This document shows positions 12,860 to 64,000 of a stretch of DNA of 64,000 bases, piece after piece (position 1 is the stretch's first letter; the number at the start of each line of letters is the position of its first letter). Location: the NCBI GenBank assembly GCA_963514005.1, contig OY740793.1, positions 15,748,001 through 15,812,000 of the forward strand, in the 5' to 3' direction. The notes below the pieces were generated by a model. That model made no database searches, was not told where the DNA came from, and worked only from the letters and a program-made list of their open reading frames with translations. The position numbers were made by a program, and so were the translations under genes. This DNA comes from Raja brachyura (Eukaryota).

Positions 12860-15800
12860 CTGCTTGAAGGAAAATAGAAAAATCAACAAAGCAATAGGCA
12901 TCAGCTCAAGCTATTTAGGCTAAAATTCCAATTAGAAATAGGACATAAGTCACATAATAGTGGACAATTTTTCATAGCTTAAAAACACCAGGTGGCACAG
13001 TTGCGCAAACCAGAGGCGCAAAAATCGAGTTGCTGCCTTACAGTGCCAGAGACCCGGGTTCGATCCCAAGATTACGGGCGCTGTCTGTACGGAGTTTGCA
13101 TCTTCTCCTTGGCCACGTGGGTTTTCTCCTGGTGCTGCAGTTTCCTCCCACACTTTAAAGATGTACAGGTCTGGAGGTTAATTGGTTTTGGTGAAAATTT
13201 GTAAATTGTCCCTAGTGTGCAGGATAGTGTTAGTGTACGGAGTTATCGCTGATCAGCGCGGATTTGGTGGTCCGAAGGGCCTGTTACCGCACTGTATTTC
13301 TAAATTCTAAACACCACTAGCACGGATGGCTATTTTGCATTCGAACTGATGCACAAATGGGCAGAGTTTCGGTAATCATTCCAAAGACATGGAGTTTGTT
13401 ATCCATAACCTGTGCACAACTTGGTTGGCTACGTAAATAGTCCAGCTACTCTTCCTGTACTTCTGTTCTAATGATGGTCTGGGTTCATAGAAACATAGAA
13501 AATAGGTGCAGGAGTAGGCCATTCGGCCCTTCGAGCCTGCACCGCCATTCAATGTGATCATGGCTGATCATCCAACTCAGTATCCCGTACCTGCCTTCTC
13601 TCCATACCCCCTGATCCCTTTAGCCACAAGTGCCACATCTAACGCCCTCTTAAATATAGCCAATGAACTGGCCTCAACTACCTTCTGTGGCAGAGAATTC
13701 CAGAGACTCACCACTCTCTGTGTAAAGAAATAAATTCATATGTTCTAAGAATAGAATTAGGTCATTCGGCCCTTCAAGTCTACTCCGCCATTCAATCATG
13801 GCTGATATATCTTTCCCTCTCAACCCCATTCTCCTGCCTTCGGCACCCTAACTAAGAAAGTTGCACACTGGCTCAAATTTAGATACTCACCAGATAAGCA
13901 AGTAGTTATCAGATTCTCTTCTATACAAGGTATAGAAAACTAAAAATAGGTTGGCACAAGGAACTGCAGAACATTTATTTGCATTACAAATGAAAACATC
14001 AAAAAATATATTTTGGGTACACAAAAGGCTGGAGAAACTCAGCGGGTGCAGCAGCATCTAAGGAGCGAAGGAGATAGGCAACGTTTCGGGCCAAAACCCT
14101 TCTTCAGACTGATGGGAGGTGGGGGGGACGGGGAGAAGAAAGGAAAAAGGAGGAGGAGGAGCCCGAGGGCTGGGGGAGAAGTGGGAAGGGGAGGAGACAG
14201 CAAGGGTTAACAGAATTGAGAAAATATATTTTCTTGTTTTGAAGACAGTGTAGATTGCAAACTGAAATCAAGAAACTTTTTTTTTATGGTACCCATGCAT
14301 GGCAACTTTAAAACCATTTACCTGATTCAGATCCTCCACAGTTTCTTCCAGTTCTGTTTTCTGTTTCATGGCAGCTTGCAAAGATTCTAGAACTGATTGC
14401 TTTGGTTGCATTCCTCTATCAAAACGATTATACATTCCACACCAGAACCTAGAGAGAAGTAGCAGTGATATTTTAAAATAACTGTTACGATAATTCATAA
14501 TGCCCAAGGAGTTTGGCCAAGAATGGAATAAACAGGAACTTACAATGTTATTCTTTTTTCCTTTCAAATGCGTGCCAGCGAGAACATGAATTGCTTGACC
14601 CAAGGGCAGCAGAGTGGCTGGTAGCTGGTGGAGTTGCTGCCTCACAGCGCCAGAGACTCTAGTTTAATCCTGACCTCAGGTGCTGTCTGTGTCGTTTGCA
14701 CATTTCCCTGTGTCCACGTGGGATTCCTCTGGACGCTCTGGTTTCCTCCGGCATCCCAAAGATGTGTAGGTTTGTAGGTTAATTGACCTATAAATTGTCT
14801 CTAATGTGTATTGAGTGGATGTGAAAGTGGAATAACCCAGAGCTAATATGAACAAGTGACAATCAAAGGCCCATACATATCCATCTACACTATCATTTCA
14901 GGGACAAAGAAACCTCTAGTTCACTCTTTTGATTGCACTATATCCATTCCACTCATCACTGCCCTTTCGCCTGCAACCACAGGCATTGCAACATCTGTTC
15001 TCTTTCCAACCACCTAGAAAATTAAACAGTTTCCAGCTGAGAGAGTTTTGTATTTTTTCTACTTAATACATGACATGCATTGCCTACAGTCAGAACAGTG
15101 AGAAGACCAAGTGCAGGTTGAGTGACATATTTGACAGTCTCCTTTGTACAGACAGCAAGCACGAATCCAAGCTTCTAGATATTGGTCACTAATTCTCTAC
15201 CCTACCCTTCCAGACTTCTATTTTCTTGCTTTCTAACTCAGTTTTAACTAAGGTCAACACTAGCTCAAGTACCAGCAAACGAAAACCAAAAATTACAGAT
15301 GGCACAAAACCAGGAAAGCTGAATTGTGCAGAAGACCTGCCAGGAAATGATATGAAGTGTTAATTTTGATTCTCTTTCCACAGATGTTGCCTGATCTGTT
15401 CAATATTTTGTAGTTACAAGTCCTTCTGACTAACCTTCTGTTCACTTGCTTGGCACTTTCCAATCCTCTTTCACCATTATCCCTTTGTCATTAAATGTAT
15501 CCTGCCTGCCATCTTCATTCTCTCCTATTGAATGTTAACTGTTTCCCTTTCTACAATGATGCATGACATACTGCTTCTGATACGTCTTTACAAGTCAGCT
15601 GACAAACTGTCGTCTTCTCATAAAACTACTTTCCAAATTTTTTTAAAGAGATAGCATCAAACCAAAATAAAAAGTTTAAGTTTCAGATTCACACTTACTT
15701 GAAGTTAAAAGGGGCAGTATTAGGTTTCAATACAGTATTAATTGCACTGGGCTTATACAGGGGATTCCGGTACTGGTACTGCTTCTCCAGCAGGAATGGC

Positions 15801-18800: not shown

Positions 18801-21800
18801 ATCAATGCAGTTACAGCAAGAATTAAGAAAGCAATCGTAGAAAGTAATTAAGAAAGTAAAATGCCTGTGGGGAAATTGAATACGAAAGGGGGAGGTTATG
18901 ATTCAGTTGCATCGAGTATTGGTGAAACCTATCTAGAATTCTGGTCTCATTATTAAAGCAAGGGTGTGAATGAGTTGTCAGCAGTTCATTGAAAGCTTAC
19001 AGATCAATACCTGGAGTGTGCAGTTTGCCTTAAGGGAAATTTGATCAGGCTGAGATCATGTTCACTGGAGTTTAGATGTGAATGAAACATACATGTTCTT
19101 GAATGATCTTGACAGGGTGGATGGGGGAAGCATTTAGAACAAGTAGTCCCCTTTGAAAAATAATAGTCAATTTTTTTCTGTGAGTATTGAGTCTGTGGGG
19201 CTCATTTTCTCAAAGGGTTGTATTACCAGAGTTTTTTGTTTTTTTAAGCAAAGATAGATATTTATTAAGCAATTGGTGATGAGATTGTAGAGGAGGTCAA
19301 ACAGCCACTCTCGTATTAAACGGCAGTACAGGCTTGAGGGACCAAGTGACCTACTGCTGCAAAGTCAGATTTTCACATGAGGCTCAGCGGGTCAGGCAGC
19401 ATCTTTGGGGGAAAAAGGATGGGTGACGTTTCGGGTCGGAACTTTTCTTCAGAGTCTGCGAAGGATCTCAACCAGAAACTCCACCCATCCTTTTTCTCCA
19501 GTGATACATAGAAACATAGAAAAATAGGTGCAGGAGTAGGCCATTCGGCCCTTCGAGCCTGCACCGCCATTCAATGTGATCATGGCTGATCATCCAACTC
19601 AGTATCCCGTCAGATACAGGCAGTATCAGATACTGCCTGACCCGCTGAGTTACTCCAGCACTTTGTGTCTTTCTTTGTTATAAAGCAGCATCTGCAGTTC
19701 TATGTTTCTACGTTTCCTCATATATTCACTTGTTGTATACAATAGGACAAGTGCCATAAAAAGGATCTGAAAATAAGGATGATGTTTATTTTGATACATC
19801 GCCCAATTGTCCACAAGGGAGCATGATTACCTTTGAGAAAACTTGTGTCCCATAGAGATCCATTCTTTTTCTATAAGAACCTGGAAAAGAAAGGCAAGTG
19901 AGAGACAAATCATTAGAAATAAATAATTCTTTATTTCTTTGTGTAAAGAATCCAGATCATCAGTAATGGAGAAAAGAGCAATTCTCATTAAATTTAAATA
20001 AAACATTCCATATTCACATAATTTAATACTCTTTTAATTTACTCCATGATTTACTTTTAATCTCAACATAAAAGATATTCTCTTTACATAGGCCTCCTCC
20101 ATACCCCACAACACTGCCCTCTCTCCCCATTCCCCCACTCACAACAAGGGCCGAGTCCCCCTGGTCCTCACCTTTCACCCCACCAGTCAGCGCATACAAC
20201 AGATAGTCCTCCAACGTGACCCCTCCACTCGCCACATCTTCCCATCTCCCCCCCTGTCTGCCTTCCGCAAAGACCGCTCCCTCCGCAACTCCCTTGTCAG
20301 TTCTTCCCTTCCCTCCTGCTCCACTCCTTCCCCGGGCACTTTCCCTTGCAACCGCAAGAGATGCTACACTTGTCCCTTCACCTCCCCCATCCACTCCTTT
20401 CAGGGGCCCAAGCAGTCATTCCAAGTCCGATAGAGGTTCACCTGCACCTCCTCCAACCTCATCTACTGCATCCCTTGCTCCAGATGCCAGCTGATCTACA
20501 TCGGTGAGACCAAGCGGAGGCTGGGCGATCGTTTCGCCGAACACCTCTGCTCGGTCCGCAATAACCAACCCGACCTCCCGGTGGCTCAGCACTTCAACTC
20601 CCCCTCCCATTCCATATCCGACCTCTCGGTCCTGGGCCTCCTCCACGGCCAGAGTGAGCAACACCGCAAGTTGGAGGAACAGCACCTCATATTCCACTTG
20701 GGGAGTCTGCAACCTCTGGGCTTAAACATTGAATTTTCTCAATTCTGTTAACCCAGACTGCCCCCTCCCCCTCCCCACCTCTCCCTCAGCCCTCGGGCCC
20801 TGACATTCCTTCTCCATCCACCCCCCCCCCCCCCACCCCAGTCGCACTAGCTTCTCATTTTCACACCACAAACAGCTTACAATGGCCTGTTTCCTTTATC
20901 ATCAATACTTTTTTGCATATCTTTCATTCATTGTTCTTTATCTCTCCACATCACTGTCTATATCTCTTGTTTCCCCGATCCCTGACCAGTCTGAAGAAGG
21001 GTCTCGACCCGAAACATCGCCTATCTCCTTCGCTCCTTAGATGCTGCTGCACCCGCTGAGTTTCTCCAGGTTTTTGTGTAACCCTAGAAAATTCCTAATG
21101 TTGTTTTCAAATAAATCTGTGTACAGTATTTCATCTAAAGTGTGTTCGGAAGTGGTTTCAAGAACCTTTAAGAGAGACCACTGAAAATACTTATTTGAGA
21201 AGTTTCCTAAACTGCTTCAAATGTTAGTTGAATTTCTACAGAAGAAAAAAAGTGAGGCCACTACCATTCATCATTACTAAGGAGTCAGAGCAGCAAATTC
21301 CAGCAACATTATATGCACCATTGAATGTGGAAATTAAAACGTTGCTGTCCAACTTGCCCTTCTAATCCAGATGGTTCCCTTCTCTAGTATAAAATGGGGA
21401 GGCAACCACCGAAATGCACAGAACATGTTATGTACATGTTTTGCATTGCACATATATGCTAATAGAGTTAAAAACAAGTAATGTCTTGTTTACTCCCATG
21501 TCAATTATTCTTAATGACATAATAAGAATTGATGGAAAAAAAGAGGCATATATAGTCCAGATTTCTTTCCCATGTTTTCATGAACAGACCTCTGCTATCT
21601 CTCCACACATCTGCTATCCCAAAAGCAATTATCCCACACACAATGCAATAATAGTTCAATAGGATTACTGATTAAAAGCCATTTGGACAGATGGATATGA
21701 AGGGTTGAGAGGAATATAGACCAAACGCAAGCAAATGCTTGCAAGGCTCGCTCAATATGCCAATTTTGTTAGCATGGAGAAAGTGGGCTGAAGGGCCTGT

Positions 21801-36800: not shown

Positions 36801-39800
36801 ATATACTAGCACTATCCTACACACCAGGGACAATTTACCAAACCCAATTTACCAACAAACCTGCATGTCTTTGGAGTGTGGGAAGAAACCGGAGCACCTG
36901 GAGAAAGCCCACGTGGCCACAAAGAACGTACAAACTCCGTAAGACAGCACCCGTAATCAGGATTATACCCGAACCCATGGCATTGTAAGGCAGCAACTCT
37001 ACCACTGCACCACAGTGCCATCCTGACTGGGATACACCTGTATAAAAAATTATGAGGTAAATAGATAGGGTGATTGCACATAGTCTTTTTCCCCAGGGTG
37101 GGGGAATCAAGAACCAGAGGGCTTAAGTTAAAGGTGAGGAGGGAAAGATTTAAGACAACTATGAAGGAGAACTATTTTTTGTAGAGTGTGCTGGGTATAG
37201 GAAATGAGCTGCCAGATAAAGTAGTTGAGGCAGGAACAATAACAAAAATAGACATTTGGACAGATATATGGCAATGAAAGGTTCAGAGGGATACGAGCCA
37301 AGCATAGGCAAATGGTACCAGCATCTTGGTTGCCATGGATGAGTTGGGCCAAAGGGCCTGGCTTTGTAATTTTATGACTCTATCACCCGTGGAAATCCCA
37401 TACATACGAACAAGCATTTGGGAGACCAGCAGGATGGAATTGCAATACCTTGTTTTTGCACATTTACCCACTTATTCTACATCACCTCCAAGCCACACAC
37501 ACACACACCTGTTTTAACAGGTTTTGTTATACAAAATAGCACAACCCTGTTTTTAACAGATTTTTTCTCAATTTCACAATTTTTGGAAGAAGTTACTGTT
37601 AGCGTTACCGGTATAGTCACAGAGTAACAGGCCCTTTGGGCCATTTCATTCATGCCAACCAAGATGAACTGGTCCCATTTGCCTGAATTTTGCCCATATA
37701 TCCTATTAAAGCTTTCCTATCTATGAACCACTCCAACTGTCTATTAAACATTGCGATTGTAGCCACCCCTACCAATTTTTCTGGCAGCCCAAATCTTTAC
37801 CCATGATCCTCATTGTGAAAAACTTGCCAATCATGTTCCTTTCGAATCTTTCCACTCTCATCTTAAATTTATGACCTCTAGTTTTAGACTCCCCAACCCT
37901 GGCAAAAAGTCAGTGATCTAGTAAAGTAACAAAGGTGAGGCATTTTTCTGATTCACACAATTCAAACACTAACTAACATTCACAAACAGGTCAGGGTTCA
38001 CAAGCCTTGGAGCCACAAAACGTCAGTGTTCAAGGCCAAAGGGAAATATAAACCCCGACCAGACCACAGAAGTCTTTCCAGCTCAAACTGTCATTAAGTG
38101 AACTCATGTTTCTCAAGACGTAACCCTCTAGCTTTTAACGTCTTTAGTTACAAAAAATAAACTGTCAATCTTCATTTAAAATTAACAATTGATCTATTTA
38201 CAGCAACTGCATATTTGTTTGGATTTTCAACTTTTATCCCACCTTTAAAACCTGTTGCTTACATCAAAATGCCTTAATAGCTGGATGTTTGTGCATTCAC
38301 CAACATCTGTTTCTGTGCTACACCTGCTCACCAATTATATACATTCAGCTATGGCTTTGTATCGGGACAACATTCTACATAGAAACATAGAAATTAGGTG
38401 CAGGAGTAGGCCATTCGGCCCTTCGAGCCTGCACCGCCATTCAATAAGATCATGGCTGATCATCCAACTCAGTATCCCGTACCTGCCTTCTCTCCATACC
38501 CTCTGATCCCCTTAGCCACAAGGGCCGCATCTAACTCCCTCTTAAATATAGCCAATGAACTGGCCTCAACTACCCTCTGTGGCAGAGAGTTCCAAAGACC
38601 CACCACTCTCTGTGTGAAAAAAGTCCTTCTCATCTCGGTCCTAAAGGATTTCCCCCTTATCCTTAAGCTGTGACCCCTTGTCCTGGACCTCCCCAACATC
38701 GGGAACAATCTTCCTGCATCTAGCCTGTCCAACCCCTTAAGAATTTTGTAAGTTTCTATAAGATCCCCTCTCAATCTCCTAAATTCTAGAGAGTATAAAC
38801 CGAGTCTATGCAGTCTTTGTTCATAAAACAGTCCTGACATCCCAGGAATCAGTCTGGTGAACCTTCTCTGCACTCCTTCTATGGCAATAATGTCCTTCCT
38901 CAGATTTGGAGACCAGAACTGCACGCAATACTCCAGGTGTGGCCTCACCAAGACCCTATACAACTGAAGTAGAACCTCCCTGTTCCTATACTCAAATCCT
39001 TTTGCTATGAAAGCTAACATACCATTCGCTTTCTTCACTGCCTGCTGTACCTGCATGCCTACTTTCAATGACTGGTGTGCCATGACACCCAGGTCGCGCT
39101 GCATCTCCCCTTTTCCTAATCGGCCTCCATTTAGATAATAGTCTGTTTTCCTATTTTTGCCACCAAAGTGGATAACCTCACATTTATCCACATTATACTG
39201 CATCTGCCAAACATTTGCCCACTCACCCAGCCTATCCAAGTCACCTTGCAGTCTCCTAGCATCCTCCTCACAGCTAACACTGCCCCCCAGCTTAGTGTCA
39301 TCCGCAAACTTGGAGATATTGCCTTCAATTCCCTCATCCAGATCATTTATGTATATTGTAAATAGCTGGGGTCCCAGCACTGTGCCTTGCGGTACCCCAC
39401 TAGTCACTGCCTGCCATTGTGAAAACGACCCGTTTACTCCTACTCTTTGCTTCCTGTTTGCCAGCCAGTTCTCTATCCACATCAATACTGAACCCCCAAT
39501 GCCGTATGCTTTAAGTTTATATACTAATCTCTTATGTGGGACCTTGTCGTAAGACTTCTAATTGGTTTGGGAACAGCTCCATCCAAAACTGCGAGAAATT
39601 GCAGAGAATTATGGACGCAACCCAGACCATCACACAAACCCTCCCCTTCCATTGCCTCTATTTGTACCTCATGTTGCCTCTGACAAGGTCACCAGCATAA
39701 TCTAAGACAAGTCGCACCATGGCTACTCCCTCTTCTCCCCTCTCCTATTGGGCAAAGGGTGTAGAATTGTGAAAATGCACAATTCAGGGACAATTTCTTC

Positions 39801-41720: not shown

Positions 41721-42094
41721 TTCCTTGCCCATCAATCTTTGGCTTAAGGGGCTGTCCCACTGTGGCAACTTAATTCGTGAGTTCAGACGCGTTTGTCCTC
41801 GACGTTTTGGGTTGAGACCCTTCTTCAGACTGATGTCAGGGGAGTGGGCGGTAGCAGAGACCCAGATCCTTGGGCCCAGCCTGCCCAAGGTGCCCCATTT
41901 ACACCAGTTCCCCCTTGCCCTCCTTTGACACATACCCTTCTAAACCTGTCCTTCTATCCATGTCAAGTACTCCAGTACTTTGCGGTGCAGGCTCGAAGGG
42001 CCGAATGGCCTACTCCTGCACACCTAATTTCTATGTTTCAAAAGTGAAGAGTCATTTGGCCCAAACGGAACAATGAAATGACCACAGAACAAAG

Positions 42095-42350: not shown

Positions 42351-42478
42351 TTTTCCCAAATGTCACCCATTCATTCTCTCCAGAAATGCTGCCTCTCCCT
42401 CTCAGTTACTCCAGCTTTCTGTGTCTATCTTTATGTAAACATAGTACTCTGTAAACAATATAATAAAAAAAACAAAGC

Positions 42479-43960
42479 TACCAATTCCTGGACTACACCT
42501 CCTCCCACCCTGCCCCTTGCAAAGACACTATCTCCTTCTCTCAATTCCTTTGGCTCTGCCACATCTGCTCCCAAGATGAGGCTTTCCATTCTAGGACATC
42601 CGAGAAGTACTCTTTCTTTAGTAATGTGAATTTCCCACCCCCAGCTATCATCGTTGGATCCATCACCCGTGTCTCCTCTGTGTCCCATGGTTTGGCTCCC
42701 ACTCCCCCTTGTCCCAGATGGAATGAGGATAGATGGAGGTTCTTACCTTTGACTGCACAGCCGGTCATAGTGCGAACTCTATCAAGTTCGCCGATGACAC
42801 CACTGTGGTTGGACGAATCACAAATGGGAACTAGTCAGAGTATAGAAGTGAGATCGACCGACTGACCAAATGGTGCGAGCACAACAACCTGGCTCTCAAC
42901 ATCAGTAAGACCAAGGAACTGATTGTGGGTTTAGTAGGGGAAGGATGAGGACCACAATCCTGTTTATATCAATGGTGGAGTGGGTCAATAACTGCAAATT
43001 CCTGGGTGTGCATGTATCAGAAGATCTTTCCTGGACCTTGCACACCGATGCAATTGTAAAGAAGGCACATCAGCGACTCTACTGCCTAAGAAGATTACAT
43101 AGATTCGGAATGTCGAAGAGGATTCTCCTAAACTTCTACAGGTGCACGATAGAGAGCATTCTGACTGGTTGCATCATGGCCTGGTTCGGCAACTTGAACG
43201 TCCAGGAGCGAAAAAGACTACAAAAAGTTATGACCGCTGCCCAGTCCATCACCGGCTTTGACCTCCCCACCGTCGAAGGGATCTATCATAGTCGCTGCCT
43301 CAAAAAAGCAGCCAAAATCATCAAGGACCCACACCATCCTGGCTACATACTCATCTCACCACTGCCATCAGGAAGAAGGTACAGGAGCATGAAGACTGTA
43401 ATGTCCAGGTTCAGGAACAGCTCTTCCCCACAGCCATCAGGCTATTAAACACAACGAATAAGCTATGAGCTCTGAACTGCAAAAGGACTATATTATTATT
43501 TGTTATTTGCACTATATTTGTTATTTATTGAACTTTTTCTTTTTTTTCCCCGTTATATACAATGTTTACATATTCACATATTCTGTTGTGCTGTAGCAAG
43601 TAAGAATTTCATGTTCCCGTCCGGGACATATGACTCTTGACTTGGCCCTTTCACAAGCCTCCACGTCCAATCCATCATCCCCTTACATTTCCACCCTCTT
43701 CAACATGATCCTACCACAAGTCACATGTTTCCATCCCCCACTTCTTTCCACCATCTGTAGAGACCATTCCCTCCTCAACTCCTCGGTTCATTCATCCCTT
43801 CCCATCCAAACCGTCCCCTCCCAGGTACTTTCCCATTGTGAGCGAAGATGATGTAACACCTGTCCCTATACCGCCTCCCTCACATCCATCCATGGACCCA
43901 AGCAGTCCTTCCAGGTGAGACAGAGGTTCATGTGCACCTCCTCTAACCGCATCTACCTGG
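42479..43960 (+). mobile_element. Older Penelope-like element fragment interrupted by a Rex1/Babar LINE
   Basis: LDYTSSHPAPCKDTISFSQF..L..ICS (PLE RT C-terminus) at 42490-42570; resumes ~43645 with ...FQVRQRFMCTSSN.IY. Confidence 0.75.
42745..43644 (+). mobile_element. Rex1/Babar-type LINE 3' fragment
   Basis: IKFADDTTVVG, NNLALNISKTKELIV, KFLGVH.SEDLSW, KKAHQRLY, FYRCTIESIL, LPSGRRYRS; GACTT-type tail. Confidence 0.82.
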
Positions 43961-46268: not shown

Positions 46269-49200
46269 ATGGAGGTCCGAGTAACTGGACTTGACCAGGA
46301 CATATCCTCTAGAGACCAGTCGCCAGTAGGGGGTAGATTGCAATTGTTCTACGATGAATGGTGCTGAATAACATCAGATCCGTTTATACTGGACAGTATC
46401 CGGGGGTCTCGAATTGAGTTTATCTCTGAATTACATGCACCCATACCACATACACCAAGTCCGGTATTGGTGTTTTCAAAACCAGAAACTCTACAGGTAA
46501 ATGATGAAATTGAAATATTATTCAAAAAAGTGGTCATTGAAAGGACGGCTCATCAGCCTCAACAATTTGTGTCTAATATATTCCCCAGGCAAAAGAAGAG
46601 GATGGTGGGTGTCGAGTTATTCTAGACCTAATCCGACTGAACTCCTATGTCAAAGAATCATAGAATCATACAAAATAGGTGCAGGAGTAGGCCATTCGGC
46701 CCTTTGAGCCTGCACCGCATGATCATGGCTGATCATCCTATTCAGTATCCTGTACCTGCCTTCTCCCCATACCCCCTGATCCCTTTAGCCACAAGGGCCA
46801 CATTTAACTCCCTCTTAAATATAGCCAATGAACTGGCGTCAACTACCTTCCATGGCAGAGAATTCCACAGACTAACACTCTGTGAAAAATGATTTTCTCA
46901 TCTCGGTCCTAAAAGACTTCCCCCTTATGCTTAAACTGTGACCCCTTGTTCTGGAGTTCCCCAACATCGGGAACAATCTTCCTGTATCTAGCCTGTCCAA
47001 CCCCTTAAGAATTTTGTAAGTCTCTATAAGATTCCCCCTCAATCTCCTAAATTCCAGCGAGTACAAGCCGAGTCTATTCAGTCTTTCTTCATATGGAAGT
47101 CCTGCCATCCCAGGAATCAGTCTGGTGAACCTTCTCTGTACTCCCTCTATGGCAAGAATGTCTTTCCTCAGATTAGGAGACCAAAACTGTACACAATACT
47201 CCAGGTGTGGCCTCACCAAGACCCTGTACAACTGCAGTAGAACCTCCCTGCTCTTGTACTCAAATCCTTTTGCTATGAATGCCAACATACCATTCGCTTT
47301 CTTCACAGCCTGCTGCACCTGCATGCCTACTTTCAATGACTGGTGTACCATGACACCCAGGTCTCGTTGCATCTCCCCTTTTCCTAATCGGCCACCGTTC
47401 AGATAATAGTCTACCCTCCTGTTTTTGCCGCCAAAGTGGATAACCTCACATTTATCCACATTATACTGCATCTGCCATGCATTTGCCCACTCACCCAACC
47501 TATCCAGATCACCTTGCAGCCTCCTAGCATCCTCCTCACAGCTAACACTGCCCTCCAGCTTCGTGTTATCCGCAAACTTGGAGATGTTGCATTCAATTCC
47601 CTCATCCAGATCATTAATATATATTGTAAATAGCTGGGGTCCCAGCACTGAGCCTTGCGGTACCCCACTAGTCACTGCCTGCCATTCTGAAAAGGGCCCG
47701 TTTACTCCTACTCTTTGTTTCCTGTCTGCCAGCCAGTTCTCTATCCATATCAATACTGAACCCCCAATACCATGTGCTTTAAGTTTGAATGCTAATCTCT
47801 TATGTGGGACCTTGTCAAAAGCCTTCTGAAAGTCCAGATATAACACATCCACATGTTCTCCCTTATCCACTCTACTAGCTACATCCTTGAAAAATTCTAT
47901 AAGATTCGTCAGACAGGATTTACCTTTCATAAATCCATGCTGACTTTGTCCAATGATTTCACCACTTTCCAAATGTGCTGCTATCCCATCTTTGACAACT
48001 GACTCTAGCATTTTCCCCACTACCGATGTTAGACTAACTGGTCTGTAATTCCCTGTTTTCTCTCTCCCTCCCTTTTTAAAAAAGTGGGGTTACATTTGCT
48101 ACCCTCCAATCCTCAGGAACTACTCCAGATTCTAAGAGTTTTGAAAAATTATCACTAATGCATCCATTTCTGGGGCTACTTCCTTAAGTACTCTGGGATG
48201 CAGCCTATCTGGCCAGGGGAATTTATCGGCCTTTAATCCATTCAATCTACCTAACACCACTTCCCGGCTAACCTGGATTTCACTCAGTTCCTCCATCTCA
48301 TTTGACCCCCGGTCCCCTGCTATTTCCGGCAGATTATTTATGTCTTCCTTAGTGAAGACAGAACCAAAGTAGTTATTCAATTGGTCTACCATGTCCTTGT
48401 TCCCCATGATCAATTCACCAGTTTCTGACTGCAAGGGACCTACATTTATTTTAACTAATCTTTTTCTCTTCACATATCTATAAAAACTTTTGCAGTCTGT
48501 TTTTATGTTCCCTGCCAGTTTTCTTTCATAATCTATTTTCCCTTTCCTAATTAAGCACTTTGTCCTCCTCTGCTGGACTGAATTTCTCCCAGTCCTCTGG
48601 TAGGCTGCTTTTTCTGGCTAATTTGTATGCTTCATCTTTAGTTTTGATACTATCCCTGATTTCCCTTGTTATCCAGTATAAACATTTTAAAATGGAAACT
48701 TTCAGTACTGCTAAGCAACTGGCTTCCAAAGGATGTTATATGGCGAGTATAGATCTGAAAGATGCATATTATTCAGCACCAATTCACCACAAATACCGTA
48801 GATACTAGAAATTTAGTTGGATGAGGCAGCTGTGGCAATTTAAAACTTTGCCCAATGAGTTAACCTCAGCCCCTAGGTTATTTACAAAATTGTTGAAACC
48901 AGTATTAGGACTACTCCGGGCTCAGAATCACATTGTGACGGCATACTTGGATGATGTTCTGATCATAGGCAATACTCACGAGGCAGCTAAATTGTTGGTT
49001 TCAGATACCAAACATATGTTTGAGAGGTTAGGTTTCCTCATCTATCCAACTAAATCCAAATTAATGCCATTTAGAATCATTGACTATTTTGGGTTCACCA
49101 TTGATTCAACTAACATGTCAGTGACTCTGCCTATGGCCAAAGCTTTAGAAATTATGGAGGCCTGCAGCAATCTGGTAGATGAACAGCAACCCTCCATCCG

Positions 49201-50227
49201 ACGAGTGGCCAGTTTTATTGGCAAATTAGTGGCGGCTTTCCCTGGAGTGCAATTCGGGCCTCCACACTATCAGAATGTGCAACGAGCTAAGGAACAGCCA
49301 CTCAAAAAACACGCGGGTCATTTCGATAGATCAATGCAGTTGCCAGTCAAAGCTATCACCGAGTTGCAATGGTGGATAACTAATTTTTCATGTTGTACTA
49401 GAAACATTCTGACTAAACAACCTTCAGTTGTTTTACAAACTGATGCGAGTGCTTCGGGTTGGGGAGCCACTGATACCAATTCTAGCTGTGGCGGCAGATG
49501 GAGTGTGCAAGAGGCATTGATCCTGCAGATGCATGGGATAAACTATTTAGAATTGTTGGGGGCATTCTATGGCCTAAAAGCGTACTGTTCAACAATACAT
49601 GATTCACATGTTCAACTCCAGATTGACAATACCACAGCTGTTGCACATATCAATCACATGGGTGGAATTAAATCATCATCATGTGATAATCTGGCTAACC
49701 TCATCTGGCACTGGTGTATTACGAGAAACATCTGGGTCCCAGCAATCTACCTACCAGGTAGAGATAACGTGGTGGCAGACACCAGGTCGTGTAAATTTAA
49801 TGACAACACAGAATGGATGCTGAATCCAAAGGTTTTCAAAAAGATTGTCACCCAGTATGGATTGCCAGACATAGGTCTGTTTGCATCCAGGCTGAATCAC
49901 CAGTTACCTAAATACATCTCATGGGAACCGGATCCAGGGGCAGTAGCGGTGGATGCATTCTTGCTACATTGGGGAGGTATGTTCTTTTACGCTTTTCCCC
50001 CATTCTGCCTTATCAGTCAATGTCTCACCAAAATTAAGCAGGACTCCGCTTCAGGCGATTTGGTAGTTCCTGACTGGGCCACACGGCCATGGTTCCCATT
50101 GGTTCTGAGACTGATGACACAGCCATTCATGGTTATCCCCAAATGCAGCAACTTGTTGGTTCACCCTGTGACAGGAGAGAGTCACCCTTTACATGATCGT
50201 ATTAATCTGTTGATTTGCAGATTCTGA
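46269..50227 (+). pseudogene. DIRS RT / RNase H / methyltransferase-like ORF, split by a CR1 insertion
   Basis: PVGGRL..., CRVILDL..LNSYV|QYKHFKME, SIDLKDAYY, AYLDDVLI, QTDASASGWG, INYLELL, IDNTTAV, LFASRLN...YAFPPF. Confidence 0.9.
46652..48674 (-). mobile_element. CR1 (HER1-like) LINE, 5'-truncated, inserted in the DIRS RT
   Basis: ORFs 46872..48020 and 48132..48473 (YLDFQKAFDKVPH, GVPQGSVLGP, KFADNTK); (ATTCTATG)n tail; DIRS frame resumes on both sides. Confidence 0.93.
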
Positions 50228-51330
50228 CCAGATCGTTCCAGGAGCTCGGACTATTGAGTCGGACCGTGGATGTGATTACTGCGGCCTGGAGGGATAGTAC
50301 TAAAAAACAATATGTATCTCGTATTAAGAAATGGGAGATGTTCTGCTTACTGTCAAATATATCTTATCATACTGCAGGCATACCTGATGTATTGGAGTTC
50401 CTTGCTACATTGCATTTTGACGAGCAATTGAGTTATAGTGCCATTAATAGTGCTCGGAGTGCTTTGTCCTCCTATTTATGACAGGGGTCGGGACAACACT
50501 CTGTCGGATCTCATCCATTGGTGTCCCGATTCATGAAAGGTGTTTTTAACAAGAACCCTCCCAGTCCTAGATATACGGAAATCTGGGATGTGAGCATAGT
50601 CCTCACACTGCTTCGGCAATGGGCTCAAATTACATCTCTGTCTTTCCAAAAACGAACGCTCAAAGTGGTCATGCTCATGGCACTCGTTTCAGCACAACGG
50701 GTCCAGACATTGCAAAAGCTACAACTGGACAGCATGCATTCTTCTGTAGATAATATTACGTTTTATGTATATGACCTAATCAAACAAAGCAGGCCAGGGA
50801 CGTCTGGAACCAAAATAAGTCAAGTCAAAAGTCAAAGTCAAACAAACTTTATTGTCATTTAGAAATACATTGATACATGCAGTTCCAAACGAAATTACGT
50901 TGCATTTGGCTCCCTGTGCAACACAATAAATTAACCGAAGGATAGGCATGGGTGAAAAGGATAAATAGACACTAGTGGCAGCCCATGCCCAAGCTTTTGA
51001 GTATAGCCCATTGACCTGAAACTGTGTGTAGTTACGCACCTGCGGCAATATATGGAGGTCACCAAGAGTCTCAGAGGCCCCGAAACAACGATGCTCATCA
51101 GTCACAAAATCCCTCATAGAAAGGTGTCGGTACAAACCATTTCTAGATGGCTGAAACAGGTTTTGGATTGTGCTGGAGTAGACACTGATGTGTTTAAATC
51201 TCACTCCACCAGGGCGGCGTCAACATCCGCAGCGAGGGCACTGGACGTCCCTTTAGACTAAATCTTCGGGGCTGCAGGATGGTCCAGTGAAGGGACTTTT
51301 TAACGGTTTTATGGCAAACCTGTTCTCACA
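50221..51330 (+). pseudogene. DIRS tyrosine recombinase ORF, decayed
   Basis: WRDSTKKQY, LSYSAINSARSALS, SAQRVQTL (box I Arg), KSHSTRAASTS (HxxR), AAGWS, F.RFY (catalytic Tyr); stops and a 171-bp insertion. Confidence 0.88.
50820..50990 (-). mobile_element. Short LINE/SINE 3' fragment inserted in the DIRS YR
   Basis: Absent from DIRS copy 2; AATAAA plus (TTTGAC)n-like tail on the minus strand; flanked by AAG on both sides. Confidence 0.7.
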
Positions 51331-51535
51331 ACGGAAGGATTTGGGCATGCTATTTGGGTTCTGTTTTGTAATTTCCCCCTGGGAGAGAGGAGTTATTACT
51401 GTTCTTTTTTGTTATTAAAACATTCATTTGTATAATTCAAACAATGTTCAATACATTATTTGTTTATCCTGTGTCAACCGAAGCAGTGTGTTGTATGGAA
51501 CTGAATCTACGGCATGAAATCACAGAGCTTTGAAA

Positions 51536-51648
51536 TCTTCACGGAATCACTCGCGTGACTCTGAAGTAAAATGGTAAGATTAAACGAGAACTTACCAGTT
51601 TGAAATTCGATCTTTATTTTATGAGGAGTTACGGTGAGTGATTACGTG
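51536..51648 (+). other. DIRS internal complementary region (ICR), copy 1
   Basis: First part is the reverse complement of the element 5' end (44857-44892); second part is the reverse complement of the 3' extension (~51794-51870). Confidence 0.9.
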
Positions 51649-52189
51649 CCCTCCGCTCTCGGCCCTCATAATCGCAAAGATCATCTGGTAGTTCTAGTCT
51701 TCTGAGTCTTACTATATTACTTTGACTGTGGTTACTGTGATTTCACGCTGCTGCTTTGTAGATCGACGCACATGCGCACTGGCGGGCCTTCTTCACGTAA
51801 TCGCTCACCATAACTCCTCATAAAATAAAGATCAAACTTCAAACTGGTAAGTTCTCATTTAATCTTACTATTTTCAATCCATTTTATTCCACTTATAATT
51901 GTAGTACAATACAATAAACACTTGCCTTGACATTGCAAGTAAACAGCACAACAAAAAGCGCATGTGTAAATCAGAGAGTTACAAAAAAGGACAAAATGGT
52001 CTGGAGTAACTCAACAGGTTACATAAAAAGACACAAAAGGTGGAGTAACTCTACGTGTTACAACCATCTCTGGAGGAAATGGAAAGGCAAACTTTTGGCT
52101 TGGGACCCTTAAACAATAAAATGCTCAGTACAGCTGACTCCCAAAATATAGTCATTCTGGTAATGGATTTCATTGCTAGATTCTCAAAT

Positions 52190-53424: not shown

Positions 53425-53905
53425 GAAATAAAAAACTGCAGATGCTGGTTAACACATAAAAGGTGTGTAGGAAGAAACTGCAGATGCTGGTTTAAATTGA
53501 AGATAGACACAAAATGTTGGAGGAACTCAGCGGGACAAGCAGCATCACTGGAGAGAAGTAGTGGGTGACGCTTTGGGTCGACACCCTTCTTCAGTCTGAT
53601 GATCTGTGGAAATAAAGAACTGCAGATGCTAGTTAACACACAAGAGGGCACAAAGTGCTGGAGCAACTCATTGGGTCAGGCAGCATCTCTGGAGAAAAGG
53701 AACCGGTAACATTTTGGGTCTGAAGAAGGATTCCGACCCGAAGTGTCACCTGTTCCTTTTCTGCCTGACCCACTGAAAGGACACAAAGTGCCTGAGTAAC
53801 TCAGCAGGTCAGGCAGCATCTTTGGAGAACATGGATAGGCTATGTTTTGCTCGAGTTTGAAGAAGGGTCTTGAACCAAAGCACTGCATATCCATGTTCTT
53901 CAGTA
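53425..53905. repeat. Cluster of nested PLE-pLTR hairpin elements
   Basis: Four AACTGCAGATGCTGG/ACACAAAGTGCTGG heads and three hammerhead-like cores (~53568 minus, 53720, ~53858). Confidence 0.75.
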
Positions 53906-56720: not shown

Positions 56721-57760
56721 TTCTCTATGTTTTATGTTCTATTTCAAGAAAACAGTGATTCGCTGGGTAAATAAAAATTTTACTTCGGAGTCACGTGACT
56801 GACTGTGTGAAGAAGCCCCGCCAGGCGTATGCGCGTCATTATGTTCGATGCATGGCGCACCGACGGGCTGGAGAGCGCAGCTCCACCATCGGTAAGTAGT
56901 AAACCGGCAGGTAAGTGATTTTAAAACTTTTCTGCGGGTACTTAAACTCCGTGAGTCTGGCTCGGGAGCCAGCGGGAGTTGTTAGCAATGGAGCGAGTTG
57001 GGAAAAAACCAGTCCGTAGTAGGAGCTTAACGCGCGGGCCCGCGGTTAGTATTTGCAGATCGGGTTGGGAGATACCGGCTGCGGTAACGCCGGCTCCGAC
57101 ATCGGCTGCTGATCTACCGGCAGCTCAACTGCCTCCGTTAACTCCAGTGCTTCAGGGCACTGAGGCCACTCCACCAGGGAGGCAGGCCAAAAGAAAATCT
57201 CTCAGGCCCGTCTTATCCGACGAGTCTGATGAGGAAGACTCCCCTCCTTCCAGCAAAAAGGTCTGGGGATGGCTCGATCAAATGAAGAAAATGTTGCAAA
57301 CTTTGTTGAGCCATAAAATATTTCAATCGGGGTCGAATGCCCCTAGGATTCCCCAAACAGCAGTAGCGGTGGATGCATTCTCGCTACTTTGGGGACGTAC
57401 GTTCTTTTACGCTTTTCCCCCATTCTGCCTCATTAGGAAATGCCTCACCAAAATAGAGCAGGACTCCGCCTCAGGCGTTTTGGTGGTTCCGGACTGGCCT
57501 ACACAGCCATGGTTCCCATTGGTGCTGAGAATGATGACTCAGCCATTTATGGCTGTCCCCAACTGCAGTAATTTGTTGGTGCATCCAGTAACAGGAGAAA
57601 GTCATCCGTTACATGATCGTATTAATCTGTTAATCTGCAGGTTCTGACCAGAATGTTCCAAGGGCTTGGACTATCGAGTAGGACCATGGATGTGATAACT
57701 GCAGCTTGGAGAGATAGCACTAAAAGCAATATGTGTCTCATATTAAGAAATGGGAGATGT

Positions 57761-57983
57761 GTTAAAGAAGGAACTGCAGATGCTGGAGAATCGAGGGTTA
57801 CACAAAAAGCTGGAGAAACTCAGCGGGTGCAGCAGCATCTAAGGAGCGAAGGAGATAGGCGACGTTTCGGGTCGAGACCCTTCTTCAGACTGAAGAAGGG
57901 TCTCGGCCCAAAACGTGGCCTATCTCCTTCGCTCCTCAGATGCTGCTGAACCCGCTGAGTTTCTCCAGCTTTTTGTGTAACCC
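57761..57983. mobile_element. Palindromic Penelope-derived element with hammerhead motifs on both strands and a 16-bp TSD
   Basis: 94-bp inverted arms (57795-57888 / 57890-57983). AAGAAATGGGAGATGT is duplicated at 57745-57760 and 57984-57999 but single in DIRS copy 1. Confidence 0.85.
57861..57888 (-). ncRNA. Minimal type I hammerhead ribozyme core (PLE-type)
   Basis: Minus strand CUGAAGA-A-GGGU(CUCG)ACCC-GAAAC-GUC: intact core boxes, helix II, palindromic ACGU in place of helix III; helix I weak. Confidence 0.6.
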
Positions 57984-59814
57984 AAGAAATGGGAGATGTT
58001 TTGCTTGCAGTCAGATATATCTTATCATACTGCAAGCATACCGGATGTATTGGAGTTCCTTGCTACATTGCATTTTGATGATCTCTTGAGCTATAGTGCC
58101 ATTAATAGTGCTCGGAGTGCTTTGTCCTCATATTTAGGGCAGTTTTCAGAACAACAATCTATCGGGTCTCATCTGTTAGTGTCCCGATTCATGAGAGGAA
58201 TCTTTAACAAGAACCCTCCTAAGCCTAGATATACAGAAATCTGGGATGTCAGTGTAGTTCTCACACTGCTTTGGCAATGGGCTCCAATTACGTCACTGTC
58301 TTTTCAGAAGTTAACACTTAAAGTGGTTATGCTCATGGCGCTAGTATCAGCGCAACGAGTTCAAACATTGCAAAAGCTATGACTAGATAGCATGTACTCT
58401 TCTGTAGATAACATTACGTTTTATGTGTTTGATTTAATCAAACAAAGCAGGCCAGGAATGGCCGGAACCAAAGTAAGCTTTAAAGCATACCCCGTTGACC
58501 AAACGTTACGTGTAGTCAAGCACCTGAGTCAATATATCGAGGTAACGAAGAGTCTCAGAGGCTCTGAGACAGCAATGCTCATCAGTCACAAAAAAAACTA
58601 ATAAAAAGGTGTCAGCACAAACTATTTCTAGATGGTTAAAACAGGTTTTGATTGTGCTGGAGTAGACACTCATGGGTTTAAATCTCACTCCACCAGGGCG
58701 ACATCGACATCCGCAGTGAAGGCACAGGACGTGCCTCTATACCAAATCCTCTGGGCCGCAGGATGGTCTAGGGAGGCGACCTTCTCCAAATTCTTTGATA
58801 AACCTGTCCTGAAAGTGCAAGGTTTTGGGCATGCTGTTTTGGGTTTGGTTTGATTTATTTTCTTTCTAAATTTCATTTGTAATTTCCCCCTGGGACAGAG
58901 GGTTTATTACTGTTTTGTTTATTATTATTTAAAACGTTTATTGGATAATTCGAAGCAATGTTCATTACATTTCTTCACTACTATGTCAACTGAAGCAGTG
59001 TGTCGTATATAATGGATTTACAGCATGAAATCACAGAGCTTTGAAATCTTCACGTAGTTACTCACGTGACTCCGAAGTAAAATAGTAAGATTAAACGAGA
59101 ACTTATCAGTTTGAAGTTTGATCTTTATTTTATGATGGGTTATGATGATGGATTACGTGCCTTCCGCTCCCGGCCCTCATAATCGCAAAGAACATCTGGT
59201 AGTTCTAGTCTTCTGAGTCTTGCTATATCACTTCGATTATAATTTCTATGTTTTCACGCTGCTGCTTTGAAGTATGATGCTCATGCGTCTGGCGGGGCTT
59301 CTTCACGTAATCCCTCATCGTAACTCCTCATAAAATAAAGATCAAACTGGCAAGTTCTCATTTAATCTTACTATTAAAGGACATGGGTAACTAGAAATGA
59401 TATCAAGCTTATTTTTGTTTCTTATTTCTACGGATATATTCACGGCAACACTTTGCAGAGTTTTGCTGAAAAGGTATTCTGATGTCAGCTGGTGCAGATC
59501 CATTTGGCTCTGCTGAGGAGTGTTACTCACCTCTCTCCTGTGCTGAATCAGCACTCTGTTGATGTAAATGTTGAGAACATGTCTTTCATGAGGGTGAAAC
59601 ATTGCATGAAGTTTGACACAAAATGCTGCGTGACTCAGCGGGCCAGGCAGCATCTGTGGAGAGAAGGAATGAATGGGAGATGTTTTAGGTCGAGACCCTT
59701 GGTTTGTCTGTTCATGTTACAATGTGTTAATAGAGTGTAAATGTTTGGCAGCTGGATATAATTATTATTCGGTGAATAGCATTTACAAATTTTAGAGTCA
59801 TATAGAGTCACATA

Positions 59815-62679: not shown

Positions 62680-63975
62680 CGACAAATGTAGGTCCCCTAC
62701 AATCAGAGACAGATGAATTTATAATGGGAAACGAGGTAATCGTAGAACAGTTAAACGAGTACTTTGATTCTGTCCTCACTAAGGAGGACAAACAATCTCC
62801 CAGAAATACTAGGGAACCAAGGATCTAGGGGGAGGGAGGAACATTAGTCACAAAATGGTGTTAGGTAAACTGTTGGGACGGAAGGCAGATAAATCCCCAG
62901 GGCCCGATGGTCTGCTTCCCAGACCATTCAAGGAGGTGGCCCTAGAAATAATGGATGAGCCTCCCAGACTAGTCAAGGAGGTGACCGTGCAAATCGTGGA
63001 TGCATTGGTGATCATTTTCCAATGTTCCCTCGACTCTGGATCAGTTCCTGTGGACGGGTGGCTAGCCAATGTAACTCCACTTTTTAAGAAAGGTGGGAGA
63101 GAGAAAACGGGGAATTATAGACCAGTTAGCCTTACATCGGTAGTGGGGAAGAAGCTGAGTCGATTATTAAAGATGTTATAGCAGCGCATTTGGAAAGTAG
63201 TGACAGGATCAGTCAAAGTCAGCATAGATTTATGAAGGGGGAAATCATGCTTGACTAATTTTCTGGAGTTTTTTGAGGATGTAACAAGTAGAATGGATAA
63301 AGGAGAGCCAGTGTGTATCTGGACTTTCAAAAATCCTTTGATAAGGTCCCACACAAGAGATTAGTGTGCAAAATTAGAGCACATGGTATTTGGGGTAGGT
63401 TATTGACATGGATAGAGAACTGTTTGGCAGACAGGAAGCAAAGAGTAGGAATTAACGGGTCCTTTTCAGAATGGCAGGCAGTAGCTTGTGGGGTGTTCGG
63501 TGCTGGGACCCCCGTTGTTTACAATATATATTAATGATTTTGACGAGCGAATTAAATGTGACATCTCCATGTTTGCGGATGACACTAAGGTGGGTGGCAG
63601 TGTGAGCTGTCATGAGGATGCTATGAGGCTGCAGAGTGACTTGGATAGGTTGGGTGAGTGGGCAGATGTATGGCAGATGCAGTATAATGTGGATAAATAT
63701 GAGGTTATCCACTTTGGTGTCAAGAACAGGAAGGCAGATTATTATCTGAATTATGTCAGATTAGAAAAAGAGGAGGTGCAACGAGAACTGGGTGTGCTTG
63801 CACATCAGTCACTGAAAGTAAGCATGCAAGTACAGCAGGCAGTGAAGAAAGCTAATGGTATATTGGTCTTCATTGCGAGAGGATTTGAGTTCAGGAACAA
63901 GGAGGTCCTACTACAGTTGTACAGGGCCCTGGTGAGACCGCACCTGGAGTATTGTGTGCAATTTTGGTCTCCTAA
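62680..63975 (+). mobile_element. CR1 LINE internal fragment, decayed
   Basis: [45 protein letters not shown] with frameshifts. Confidence 0.9.
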
Positions 63976-64000
63976 ATTACTGATAATTGGGATTTCAGAT

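What the first reader, a model, noticed from the sequence alone, without database searches (positions are those of the whole stretch)
57745..57999. Palindromic mobile element with hammerhead cores on both strands, inserted with a 16-bp TSD
Seen: a 223-bp insert (57761-57983) with 94-bp inverted arms around a single A (57889), flanked by a 16-bp duplication. DIRS copy 1 supplies the empty site (AAGAAATGGGAGATGT once, at ~50326). The minus strand has an intact CUGAAGA-A-helix II-GAAAC-GUC core; the plus strand has a decayed copy. The arms match the pLTR of the Penelope-like element at 20090-21083. Established: PLE pLTRs carry minimal type I hammerheads and often occur inverted. Inference: the hairpin integrated as one coding-free unit, a retrozyme/viroid-like rod parasitising PLE RT and GIY-YIG. 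A transcript would form ~94-bp dsRNA that could mask the ribozyme or feed small-RNA pathways.
Basis: partly seen in the sequence, partly recalled or inferred. Interest (0 to 1): 0.72.

Follow-up and report, generated by a model that had tools for sequence, protein, structure and literature searches.

The report
Stump-sized palindromic Penelope retrotransposon insertion
This is a real but mostly ordinary short insertion of a Penelope-type jumping gene's end, laid down as a mirror-image pair with a one-sided 34-base tail (a pattern already described for this class), not a new viroid-like element.

Summary
In detail: a 223-bp insert with 94-bp arms (89/94 identical), a perfect 16-bp TSD and an empty site in a DIRS paralog. 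They match the one-sided 30-40-bp 'tail' published for Penelope-like element (PLE) insertions, as does the head-to-head inverted pLTR with a TSD.

The window holds 14 such head-to-head pairs: 12 have a tail on one arm, none on both, and 7 have a TSD of 10-16 bp. So the form integrates as one coding-free unit, repeatedly.

The retrozyme/viroid reading is not supported. The two hammerhead cores lie on opposite strands. The plus-strand core has G12A and C17G. Helix I is 2 bp. The rod buries the intact core (22 kcal/mol). The insert's ends are not at the cleavage site. Arms decay symmetrically (47:44).

Most likely it is a maximally 5'-truncated, Neptune-like PLE insertion in a skate-like genome, with the mirror arm built during integration. 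No genome was held, so identical sibling hairpins could not be sought. This scan reported the same pattern in two shark genomes (e1-7858806, e1-7789271).

The parts
57745..57760 (+). left copy of 16-bp target-site duplication
   Evidence: identical to 57984-57999; single copy at 50326 in the paralog
57761..57794 (-). 34-nt one-sided PLE 'tail' (3' extension of the left pLTR arm in PLE sense)
   Evidence: a homologous extension is on one arm of 12 of 14 hairpins, never both; 30-40-bp tail in PMC8557442, PMC11167929, PMC3846280
57795..57888 (-). left arm: pLTR end in PLE sense on the minus strand; matches the young subfamily at all five sites where the arms differ
57861..57888 (-). minimal type I hammerhead core CUGAAGA-A-helix II (5 bp)-GAAAC-GUC; predicted cut between 57861 and 57860; helix I only 2 bp
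   Evidence: motif anatomy as in PMC4209133; no Rfam hammerhead hit
57886..57892 (.). head-to-head junction CAG-A-CTG, which coincides with a native CAG-T-CTG micro-palindrome in the parent PLE (20987-20993)
57890..57983 (+). right, tail-less arm; five derived changes (57906, 57910 = G12A, 57917 = C17G, 57937, 57949)
57984..57999 (+). right copy of 16-bp target-site duplication
57360..59375 (+). host DIRS-type retrotransposon copy; the insert falls in the 5' (SAM-like) part of its tyrosine-recombinase frame
   Evidence: paralogy to 49940-51872; Phage_int_SAM_4 E 1.3e-4 on the paralog, below cut-off; no such hit on the piece 3' of the insert; RVT_1 at 48809-50224
50326..50341 (+). empty site in the DIRS paralog
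20062..21088 (+). 5'-truncated parent-type PLE: RT-EN linker with Cys motif, GIY-YIG, 3' UTR, pLTR end without tail (its GUC reads AUC)
14015..14225 (-). second young PLE copy, about 210 bp, not inverted, no tail, TSD of at least 10 bp

Best explanation
It is the shortest form of an ordinary insertion of an EN+ (Neptune-like) Penelope-like retrotransposon. SHOWN: staggered target duplication, head-to-head pLTR arms with PLE 3' ends outermost, tail on one arm, centre at the base just 5' of the hammerhead core. INFERRED: (1) PLE GIY-YIG nicks the two target strands 16 nt apart. (2) RT primes on one nick at the distal (tail) start site and copies about 129 nt of uncleaved pLTR RNA. (3) Synthesis stops at the CAG-T-CTG micro-palindrome beside the ribozyme and switches template there. 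(4) The mirror arm runs to the proximal (tail-less) end and joins the other nick, either by copying the new cDNA or by a second priming event on the opposite strand. The hammerhead is a passenger; the copy is dead on arrival and both arms then decay, often losing the centre.
For: The architecture equals published PLE insertions: inverted 5'-truncated copy plus a 30-40-bp tail at one end (PMC8557442); head-to-head inverted pLTRs with palindromes at the junction, 31-bp tail and 8-10-bp TSDs (PMC3846280); tail = interval between two RT start sites, both strands cut and extended, ribozyme cleavage dispensable (PMC11167929). In the window: 48 profile hits in 32 clusters, 0 in 3 controls. Adjacent opposite-strand pairs are 14 head-to-head and 1 tail-to-tail. 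3' ends fall in two classes, 26 of 48 at model 81-104 and 14 of 48 at 122+. The tail is on exactly one arm in 12 of 14 hairpins, on both in none. TSDs of 10-16 bp in 7 of 14 at background p<0.05. The same young subfamily also left two plain truncated copies (20062-21088, 14015-14225). Derived changes split 47:44 between tailed and tail-less arms in the 10 other tailed hairpins.
Against: All 5 arm differences of the focal copy lie on the tail-less arm (two-sided p 0.06), and one is shared with copy 14015. That could mean the arms had different templates or an inherited asymmetry. Coding-free pLTR pieces far outnumber ORF remnants (32 clusters against 3 remnants), more than random 5' truncation alone suggests. 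Two older hairpins share the same collapsed junction (2359 and 53719). 6 of 48 arms start at model 29-35, close to the predicted cut, so some templates may have been cleaved. Variable centres do not separate de novo formation from later deletion in a pre-formed hairpin. The steps of synthesis are not shown. Clade was assigned by a motif, without a tree.
Confidence: 0.7

Rival explanations
1. A dedicated short pLTR transcript (about 130 nt, starting at an initiator-like YCAGTCT just 5' of the hammerhead and made from solo or hairpin copies) is mobilised in trans like a SINE. The palindrome is still built at integration, but the family no longer needs full-length PLE RNA as template.
For: 8 of 14 hairpins have an arm reaching model position 1-3, and two solo copies (24533, 34695) begin there with short TSD-like repeats of scores 7 and 9. 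CAG precedes the unit in 7 of 10 non-hairpin copies. Summed contig depth peaks over the pLTR core in runs X2 and X15 (not a copy number). pLTRs act in trans in rotifers (PMC3846280), and pLTR-derived non-autonomous elements are proposed in vertebrates (bioRxiv 2026.07.22.740005).
Against: No start site was measured; the initiator reading is a recalled consensus. The same CAG could be a splice acceptor (as in D. virilis, PMC4209133) or simply the template-switch site. 5' truncation of full-length RNA with a strong stop gives the same products.
Confidence: 0.18
2. One reading: a pre-formed 223-nt rod RNA, possibly circular, with hammerheads in both polarities replicates as a unit like a retrozyme or viroid, using PLE RT and endonuclease.
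For: Single-unit, coding-free insertion with TSD; very stable rod; intact minus-strand core; 5:0 arm asymmetry; one junction shared by two older copies.
Against: No same-strand second hammerhead to excise a unit. Ends are not at the cut site. Plus-strand core has G12A and C17G (inactivating by established hammerhead rules, recalled). Freeing the core from the rod costs 22.1 kcal/mol and helix I is 2 bp. Only 2 of 28 arms keep the core motif and decay is symmetric. TSD lengths and centres vary. Metazoan minimal hammerheads are inactive as monomers (PMC4209133), and the Anolis one needs protein and is dispensable for insertion (PMC11167929).
Confidence: 0.07
3. The palindrome is secondary: two independent pLTR stubs inserted or recombined head-to-head, or an assembly fold-back artefact.
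For: The arms differ at 5 sites. PLE endonuclease can target its own pLTR (PMC11167929), and a nested cluster exists at 53426-53903.
Against: One perfect TSD bounds the whole insert and the paralog has a clean empty site. 14 of 15 opposite-strand neighbours are head-to-head. An assembly fold-back would give identical arms and no TSD.
Confidence: 0.04

Closest known systems
EN+ Penelope-like element insertions with inverted pLTR and one-sided tail (Arkhipova et al. 2013 PMC3846280; Craig et al. 2021 PMC8557442; Schostak et al. 2008 PMC2377424)
   Same: head-to-head inverted pLTR, palindrome at the junction, 30-40-bp tail on one end (34 bp here; a 34-bp repeat in D. virilis), TSD of roughly 10 bp or more
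   Different: here no ORF or second direct pLTR lies between the arms, the TSD is longer (16 bp against 8-10 in A. vaga), and this minimal form is the commonest paired form in the window
Poseidon PAc of Anolis, in vitro (Frangieh et al. 2024 PMC11167929)
   Same: two 3' end classes separated by the tail; hammerhead retained uncut in inserted copies; AT-rich sequence with ATT directly 5' of the TSD
   Different: this element has a Neptune-type Cys linker and no ATG at the start of helix II; inverted products were not described in the parts read
Minimal type I hammerheads of metazoan PLEs (Cervera and de la Pena 2014 PMC4209133)
   Same: CUGANGA, extra base before helix II, G10.1-C11.1, palindromic ACGU in place of helix III; the paper notes pairs of motifs 100-700 bp apart on opposite strands
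   Different: helix II 5 bp (7-8 typical there), helix I 2 bp (4-5 typical; 2 in D. virilis), and the two cores are 1 nt apart
Non-LTR retrozymes (Cervera and de la Pena 2020 PMC7229834; Li, Clavereau, Pollet 2026 bioRxiv 10.64898/2026.07.22.740005)
   Same: coding-free, pLTR-derived, type I hammerhead, TSD longer than 4 bp, PLE partner present
   Different: retrozymes are same-strand tandem repeats that release unit-length linear and circular RNA; this is an inverted pair that cannot do so

Membership tests
EN+ PLE insertion (inverted pLTR + tail) | arms homologous to the pLTR of an RT + GIY-YIG element | tested here: met
   97% over 102 nt to 20987-21088; that copy matches an 889-aa RVT_1 + GIY-YIG protein P0024
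EN+ PLE insertion (inverted pLTR + tail) | head-to-head inversion with a palindrome at the junction | tested here: met
EN+ PLE insertion (inverted pLTR + tail) | 30-40-bp tail at one end only | tested here: met
   34 bp; 12 of 14 hairpins one tail, 0 both, 2 none
EN+ PLE insertion (inverted pLTR + tail) | target-site duplication of variable length | tested here: met
   16 bp with empty site; 10-15 bp in 6 of the other 13
Neptune clade of PLEs | Zn-finger-like Cys motif in the RT-EN linker | tested here: met
   [11 protein letters not shown]; the feature is stated for Neptune and Nematis in PMC8557442
Neptune clade of PLEs | RT phylogeny groups with Neptune | not tested
   no named Neptune reference at hand; RT core absent from the window copy
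Minimal type I hammerhead | core CUGANGA...GAAA...NUH with helix II and palindromic 15.2-16.2 | tested here: met
   minus strand 57888-57861; not met on the plus strand
Minimal type I hammerhead | helix I of 4-5 bp | tested here: not met
   2 contiguous bp in the hairpin and both parents; a 2-bp helix I is reported for D. virilis
Minimal type I hammerhead | self-cleavage as dimer or with protein | not testable with these tools
   needs in vitro assay
Non-LTR retrozyme | same-strand tandem units, each with a complete hammerhead | tested here: not met
   inverted pair; 1 same-strand neighbour pair among 16 in the window, at 53467-53720, neither core complete
Non-LTR retrozyme | unit delimited by the ribozyme cut site | tested here: not met
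   ends are at model positions about 95 and 129, centre at 1; the cut is after 29
Non-LTR retrozyme | accumulates as unit-length linear or circular RNA | not testable with these tools
   only contigs of a run guessed to be RNA were available
Viroid-like rod with ribozymes in both polarities | functional ribozyme in each polarity | tested here: not met
   plus-strand core G12A, C17G; 2 of 28 hairpin arms keep the motif
Self-propagating non-autonomous hairpin family | many copies sharing centre and arm-asymmetric variants | tested here: inconclusive
   no young sibling in the window; no genome held; strand-change joints not displayed

The most novel reading that the evidence does not exclude
In skates a short capped pLTR RNA starting at TCAGT is a SINE-like partner of a Neptune-type PLE. 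A dimeric PLE protein primes on both nicked strands, one at the tail start site and one at the tail-less site, and joins the two cDNAs at the micro-palindrome beside the hammerhead. The strict 'one tail, never two' rule, and the unexplained G-joined contigs at 20988, would then be a genome-scale record of an asymmetric double-priming step in PLE transposition, whose inverted products are still mechanistically unexplained.
Probability: 0.2. Interest if true: 0.5.

Novelty: new member of a known kind. Interest (0 to 1): 0.2.

Why it matters
As it stands it matters little: it adds a clean, young example with an empty site to a described PLE insertion pattern. Its value is as material. How PLEs make inverted repeats and tails is still open (PMC8557442, PMC11167929). 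Cartilaginous-fish genomes seem to hold very many minimal products (profile hits cover 6.3% of this window; 117,292 contigs of one run fell on the 1-kb parent copy). With whole genomes, centre position, tail side, TSD length and arm identity could be counted to choose between fold-back and double priming. The hairpins also score as miRNA precursors in Rfam (E to 8e-9, all far below gathering), a source of false miRNA calls.

Tried and rejected
Whole-genome search: no genome is held.

Exact centre pattern: 0 hits in viral contigs and prokaryote genomes; 1 metagenome hit, L001, a bacterial intergenic inverted repeat with no flanking similarity. Arm pattern: 0 viral; 11 prokaryote hits, with profile matches of only 19-39 nt around the seed, taken as chance.

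Rfam: no family at gathering (5); no hammerhead among 13 weak hits (59).

Read laying (27): raw-read runs X21 and X22 gave 2 reads each (unrelated organisms). X2 and X15 are contigs only; 15 of 273 joints were shown, all skips, none GT..AG into 20990. So neither shared hairpin centres, nor splicing, nor cleavage ends could be read. X15 is only guessed to be RNA, so it is no evidence of transcription.

Systematic mutation bias to the tail-less arm: rejected (47:44 without the focal copy, p 0.83). Selection on the rod through G-U wobbles: rejected; 3 of 5 changes are true mismatches on the minus strand (33). TSD search gave nothing significant for 7 of 14 hairpins and for the PLE at 20090. Kojima 2018 (39) gave nothing on palindromic Penelope repeats. 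Our-findings look-ups by sequence (25) and by place (46) were empty.

Full report
1. Observation. The insert, arms, centre, TSD and empty site are as described. The TSD 16-mer occurs three times in the window: twice around the insert and once at 50326 in a DIRS paralog that is 594/685 identical over the flanks. The insert falls in the 5' part of the DIRS tyrosine-recombinase frame (SAM-like domain on the paralog, E 1.3e-4, below Pfam's cut-off). The arms are 89/94 complementary, and the minus-strand RNA folds to -181.2 kcal/mol (z -23.9).

2. Source. The left arm matches 20987-21088 at 97%. That copy ends a 5'-truncated ORF with a Cys-rich linker and a GIY-YIG domain, broken by one stop. Its closest protein relatives are from Leucoraja erinacea (87%), then Mobula and Rhincodon (28 hits of 124 candidates), so the host is most likely a skate or ray (inference). 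It aligns to an 889-aa RVT_1 + GIY-YIG protein. The linker motif is the one given for Neptune and Nematis in Craig et al. 2021 (passages); no tree was built. A second young copy (14015-14225) is a plain truncated insertion with a TSD and no tail.

3. The family in the window. A profile from 11 window copies finds 48 hits in 32 clusters and none in one reversed and two shuffled controls. Of 16 neighbouring hit pairs, 14 are head-to-head, 1 is tail-to-tail (two adjacent hairpins) and 1 is same-strand. Twelve of the 14 hairpins carry the tail on exactly one arm, none on both, and 2 show none because an arm is cut short. The 12 include 19382, whose tail is displaced by a later insertion, and 43972, whose tail is diverged. 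Seven of 14 have a TSD at background p<0.05 (300 random pairs, no correction for 14 tests), 10-16 bp long, around inserts of 91-244 bp. PLE ORF remnants occur at only three places, one directly beside hairpin 43972. So coding-free, single-unit hairpins recur across several older sequence variants. Outer ends are shared; centres are not. Only the focal copy and, nearly, 19382 are intact, one has a 20-nt filler, and the rest lack part of the centre; two of these share one junction. No hairpin has more than about 28 nt between its arms, so the fold point lies at or 3' of the base before the hammerhead core. The parent has a native CAG-T-CTG micro-palindrome there.

4. The ribozyme. The minus-strand core fits the minimal type I motif of Cervera and de la Pena 2014 (results and discussion read; figures not seen). 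Contigs of related species show GUC as the majority at 21016-21018. Helix I is only 2 bp in the hairpin and both parents. The rod pairs the core with the opposite arm at probability near 1 at 24 of 28 positions, and freeing it costs 22.1 kcal/mol. The plus-strand copy has G12A and C17G, inactivating by established hammerhead rules (recalled). Only 2 of 28 hairpin arms keep the motif, many because the region is deleted. Derived changes split 47:44 between tailed and tail-less arms in the 10 other tailed hairpins (3 hairpins without an assigned tail left out). Against my reading: the focal split is 0:5 (p 0.06), one change is shared with copy 14015, and 6 of 48 hits start at model 29-35, near the predicted cut, compared with 19 at 1-3 (about 7 of those 19 merely run on into 3' UTR).

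5. Literature. Craig et al. 2021 (passages) describe an inverted 5'-truncated copy and a 30-40-bp tail often at one end only. Arkhipova et al. 2013 (passages and Discussion) describe head-to-head inverted pLTRs, junction palindromes, a 31-bp tail, 8-10-bp TSDs and pLTR action in trans, and propose self-priming. Schostak et al. 2008 (passages) show the 34-bp repeat and inverted ends in D. virilis. Frangieh et al. 2024 (main text) show that both strands are cut and extended, that the tail is the interval between two RT start sites, and that ribozyme cleavage needs protein and is dispensable. Retrozymes are same-strand tandems that release circles (Cervera and de la Pena 2020, passages; Li et al. 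2026, parts 1-3 of 5; its supplements are closed and include a chondrichthyan family list that may bear on this). Seven searches listed no paper on chondrichthyan pLTR hairpins. Repbase, Dfam, Arkhipova 2006 and Pyatkov 2004 were not available or not read, so this is weak evidence of absence.

6. Mechanism. Shown: geometry. The PLE 3' ends lie outermost on both sides, as expected if each target nick joined a cDNA start; one end has the tail; the centre is at the micro-palindrome and its base fits the tailed arm's cDNA. Inferred: staggered GIY-YIG nicks, priming at the distal start site on uncleaved RNA, a template switch at CAG-T-CTG, and a second arm ending at the proximal site; later neutral decay and centre loss. 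Fold-back on cDNA and double priming by a protein dimer cannot be separated here, nor can full-length from short dedicated template RNA. A self-copying rod is unlikely but not excluded, because no young sibling and no genome were available and the read test failed to show strand-change joints.

7. Earlier notes. Two AI follow-ups on shark genomes reached the same reading. I had formed it before the look-up and count them as leads only. Their claim that differing centres prove de novo formation is not proven by my data, since later deletion also varies centres.

8. Verdict. A real, young, well-bounded example of a known PLE insertion pattern. New member of a known kind; interest 0.2.

Noticed in passing
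window:20987-20989 and 21021-21026 (run X2 contigs): Contigs join unit positions 32-37 to 2 nt upstream of the unit through an extra G (5 of 12 rows shown end at 20988; depth up to 1507). The joint type was not printed. It could mark a capped start at TCAGT joined to a cleaved-RNA copy, a short tandem, or a mapping artefact.
   Followed up: partly
window:20960-20990; also 14108-14130, 41829-41850, 4060-4076, 29775-29790: A pyrimidine-rich tract and CAG lie directly 5' of the hammerhead unit in 7 of 10 non-hairpin copies, with CCCTGAC/CCCTAAC just upstream in 4. It looks like a splice acceptor or initiator; in D. virilis an intron ends at helix I.
   Followed up: partly
window:53426-53903: Cluster of nested pLTR units: two adjacent hairpins plus a same-strand unit set between two near-identical 25-bp tail pieces (53426, 53610), as if a copy inserted into another copy's tail.
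   Followed up: partly
window:51568-51874 and 59079-59375: Both DIRS copies end in an 81-bp inverted repeat pair (about 92%), as expected for DIRS terminal and internal complementary regions.
   Followed up: no
window:19382-19707: An older hairpin is split by the 3' end of another repeat (19505-19626; family D13), which displaces its tail.
   Followed up: partly
window:43653-44150 and 42476-42799: Two further decayed PLE ORF remnants; the first abuts hairpin 43972 at the start of the GIY-YIG domain.
   Followed up: no
window:6380-7725, 31151-31930, 35021-35593, 38376-39557, 46872-48089, 63316-63978: Several copies of an RT-encoding LINE-like family, up to 98% identical and in both orientations (RVT_1 on the two copies scanned).
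   Followed up: no
window:40293-41710: G-rich minisatellites (about 26-28-bp and 17-bp units).
   Followed up: no
window:57842-57936: The hairpin scores as several miRNA precursor families (E down to 8e-9), all far below gathering scores; a likely source of false miRNA annotation.
   Followed up: yes
L001:660-688: A bacterial intergenic inverted repeat carries the same 23-nt palindromic centre by chance.
   Followed up: yes
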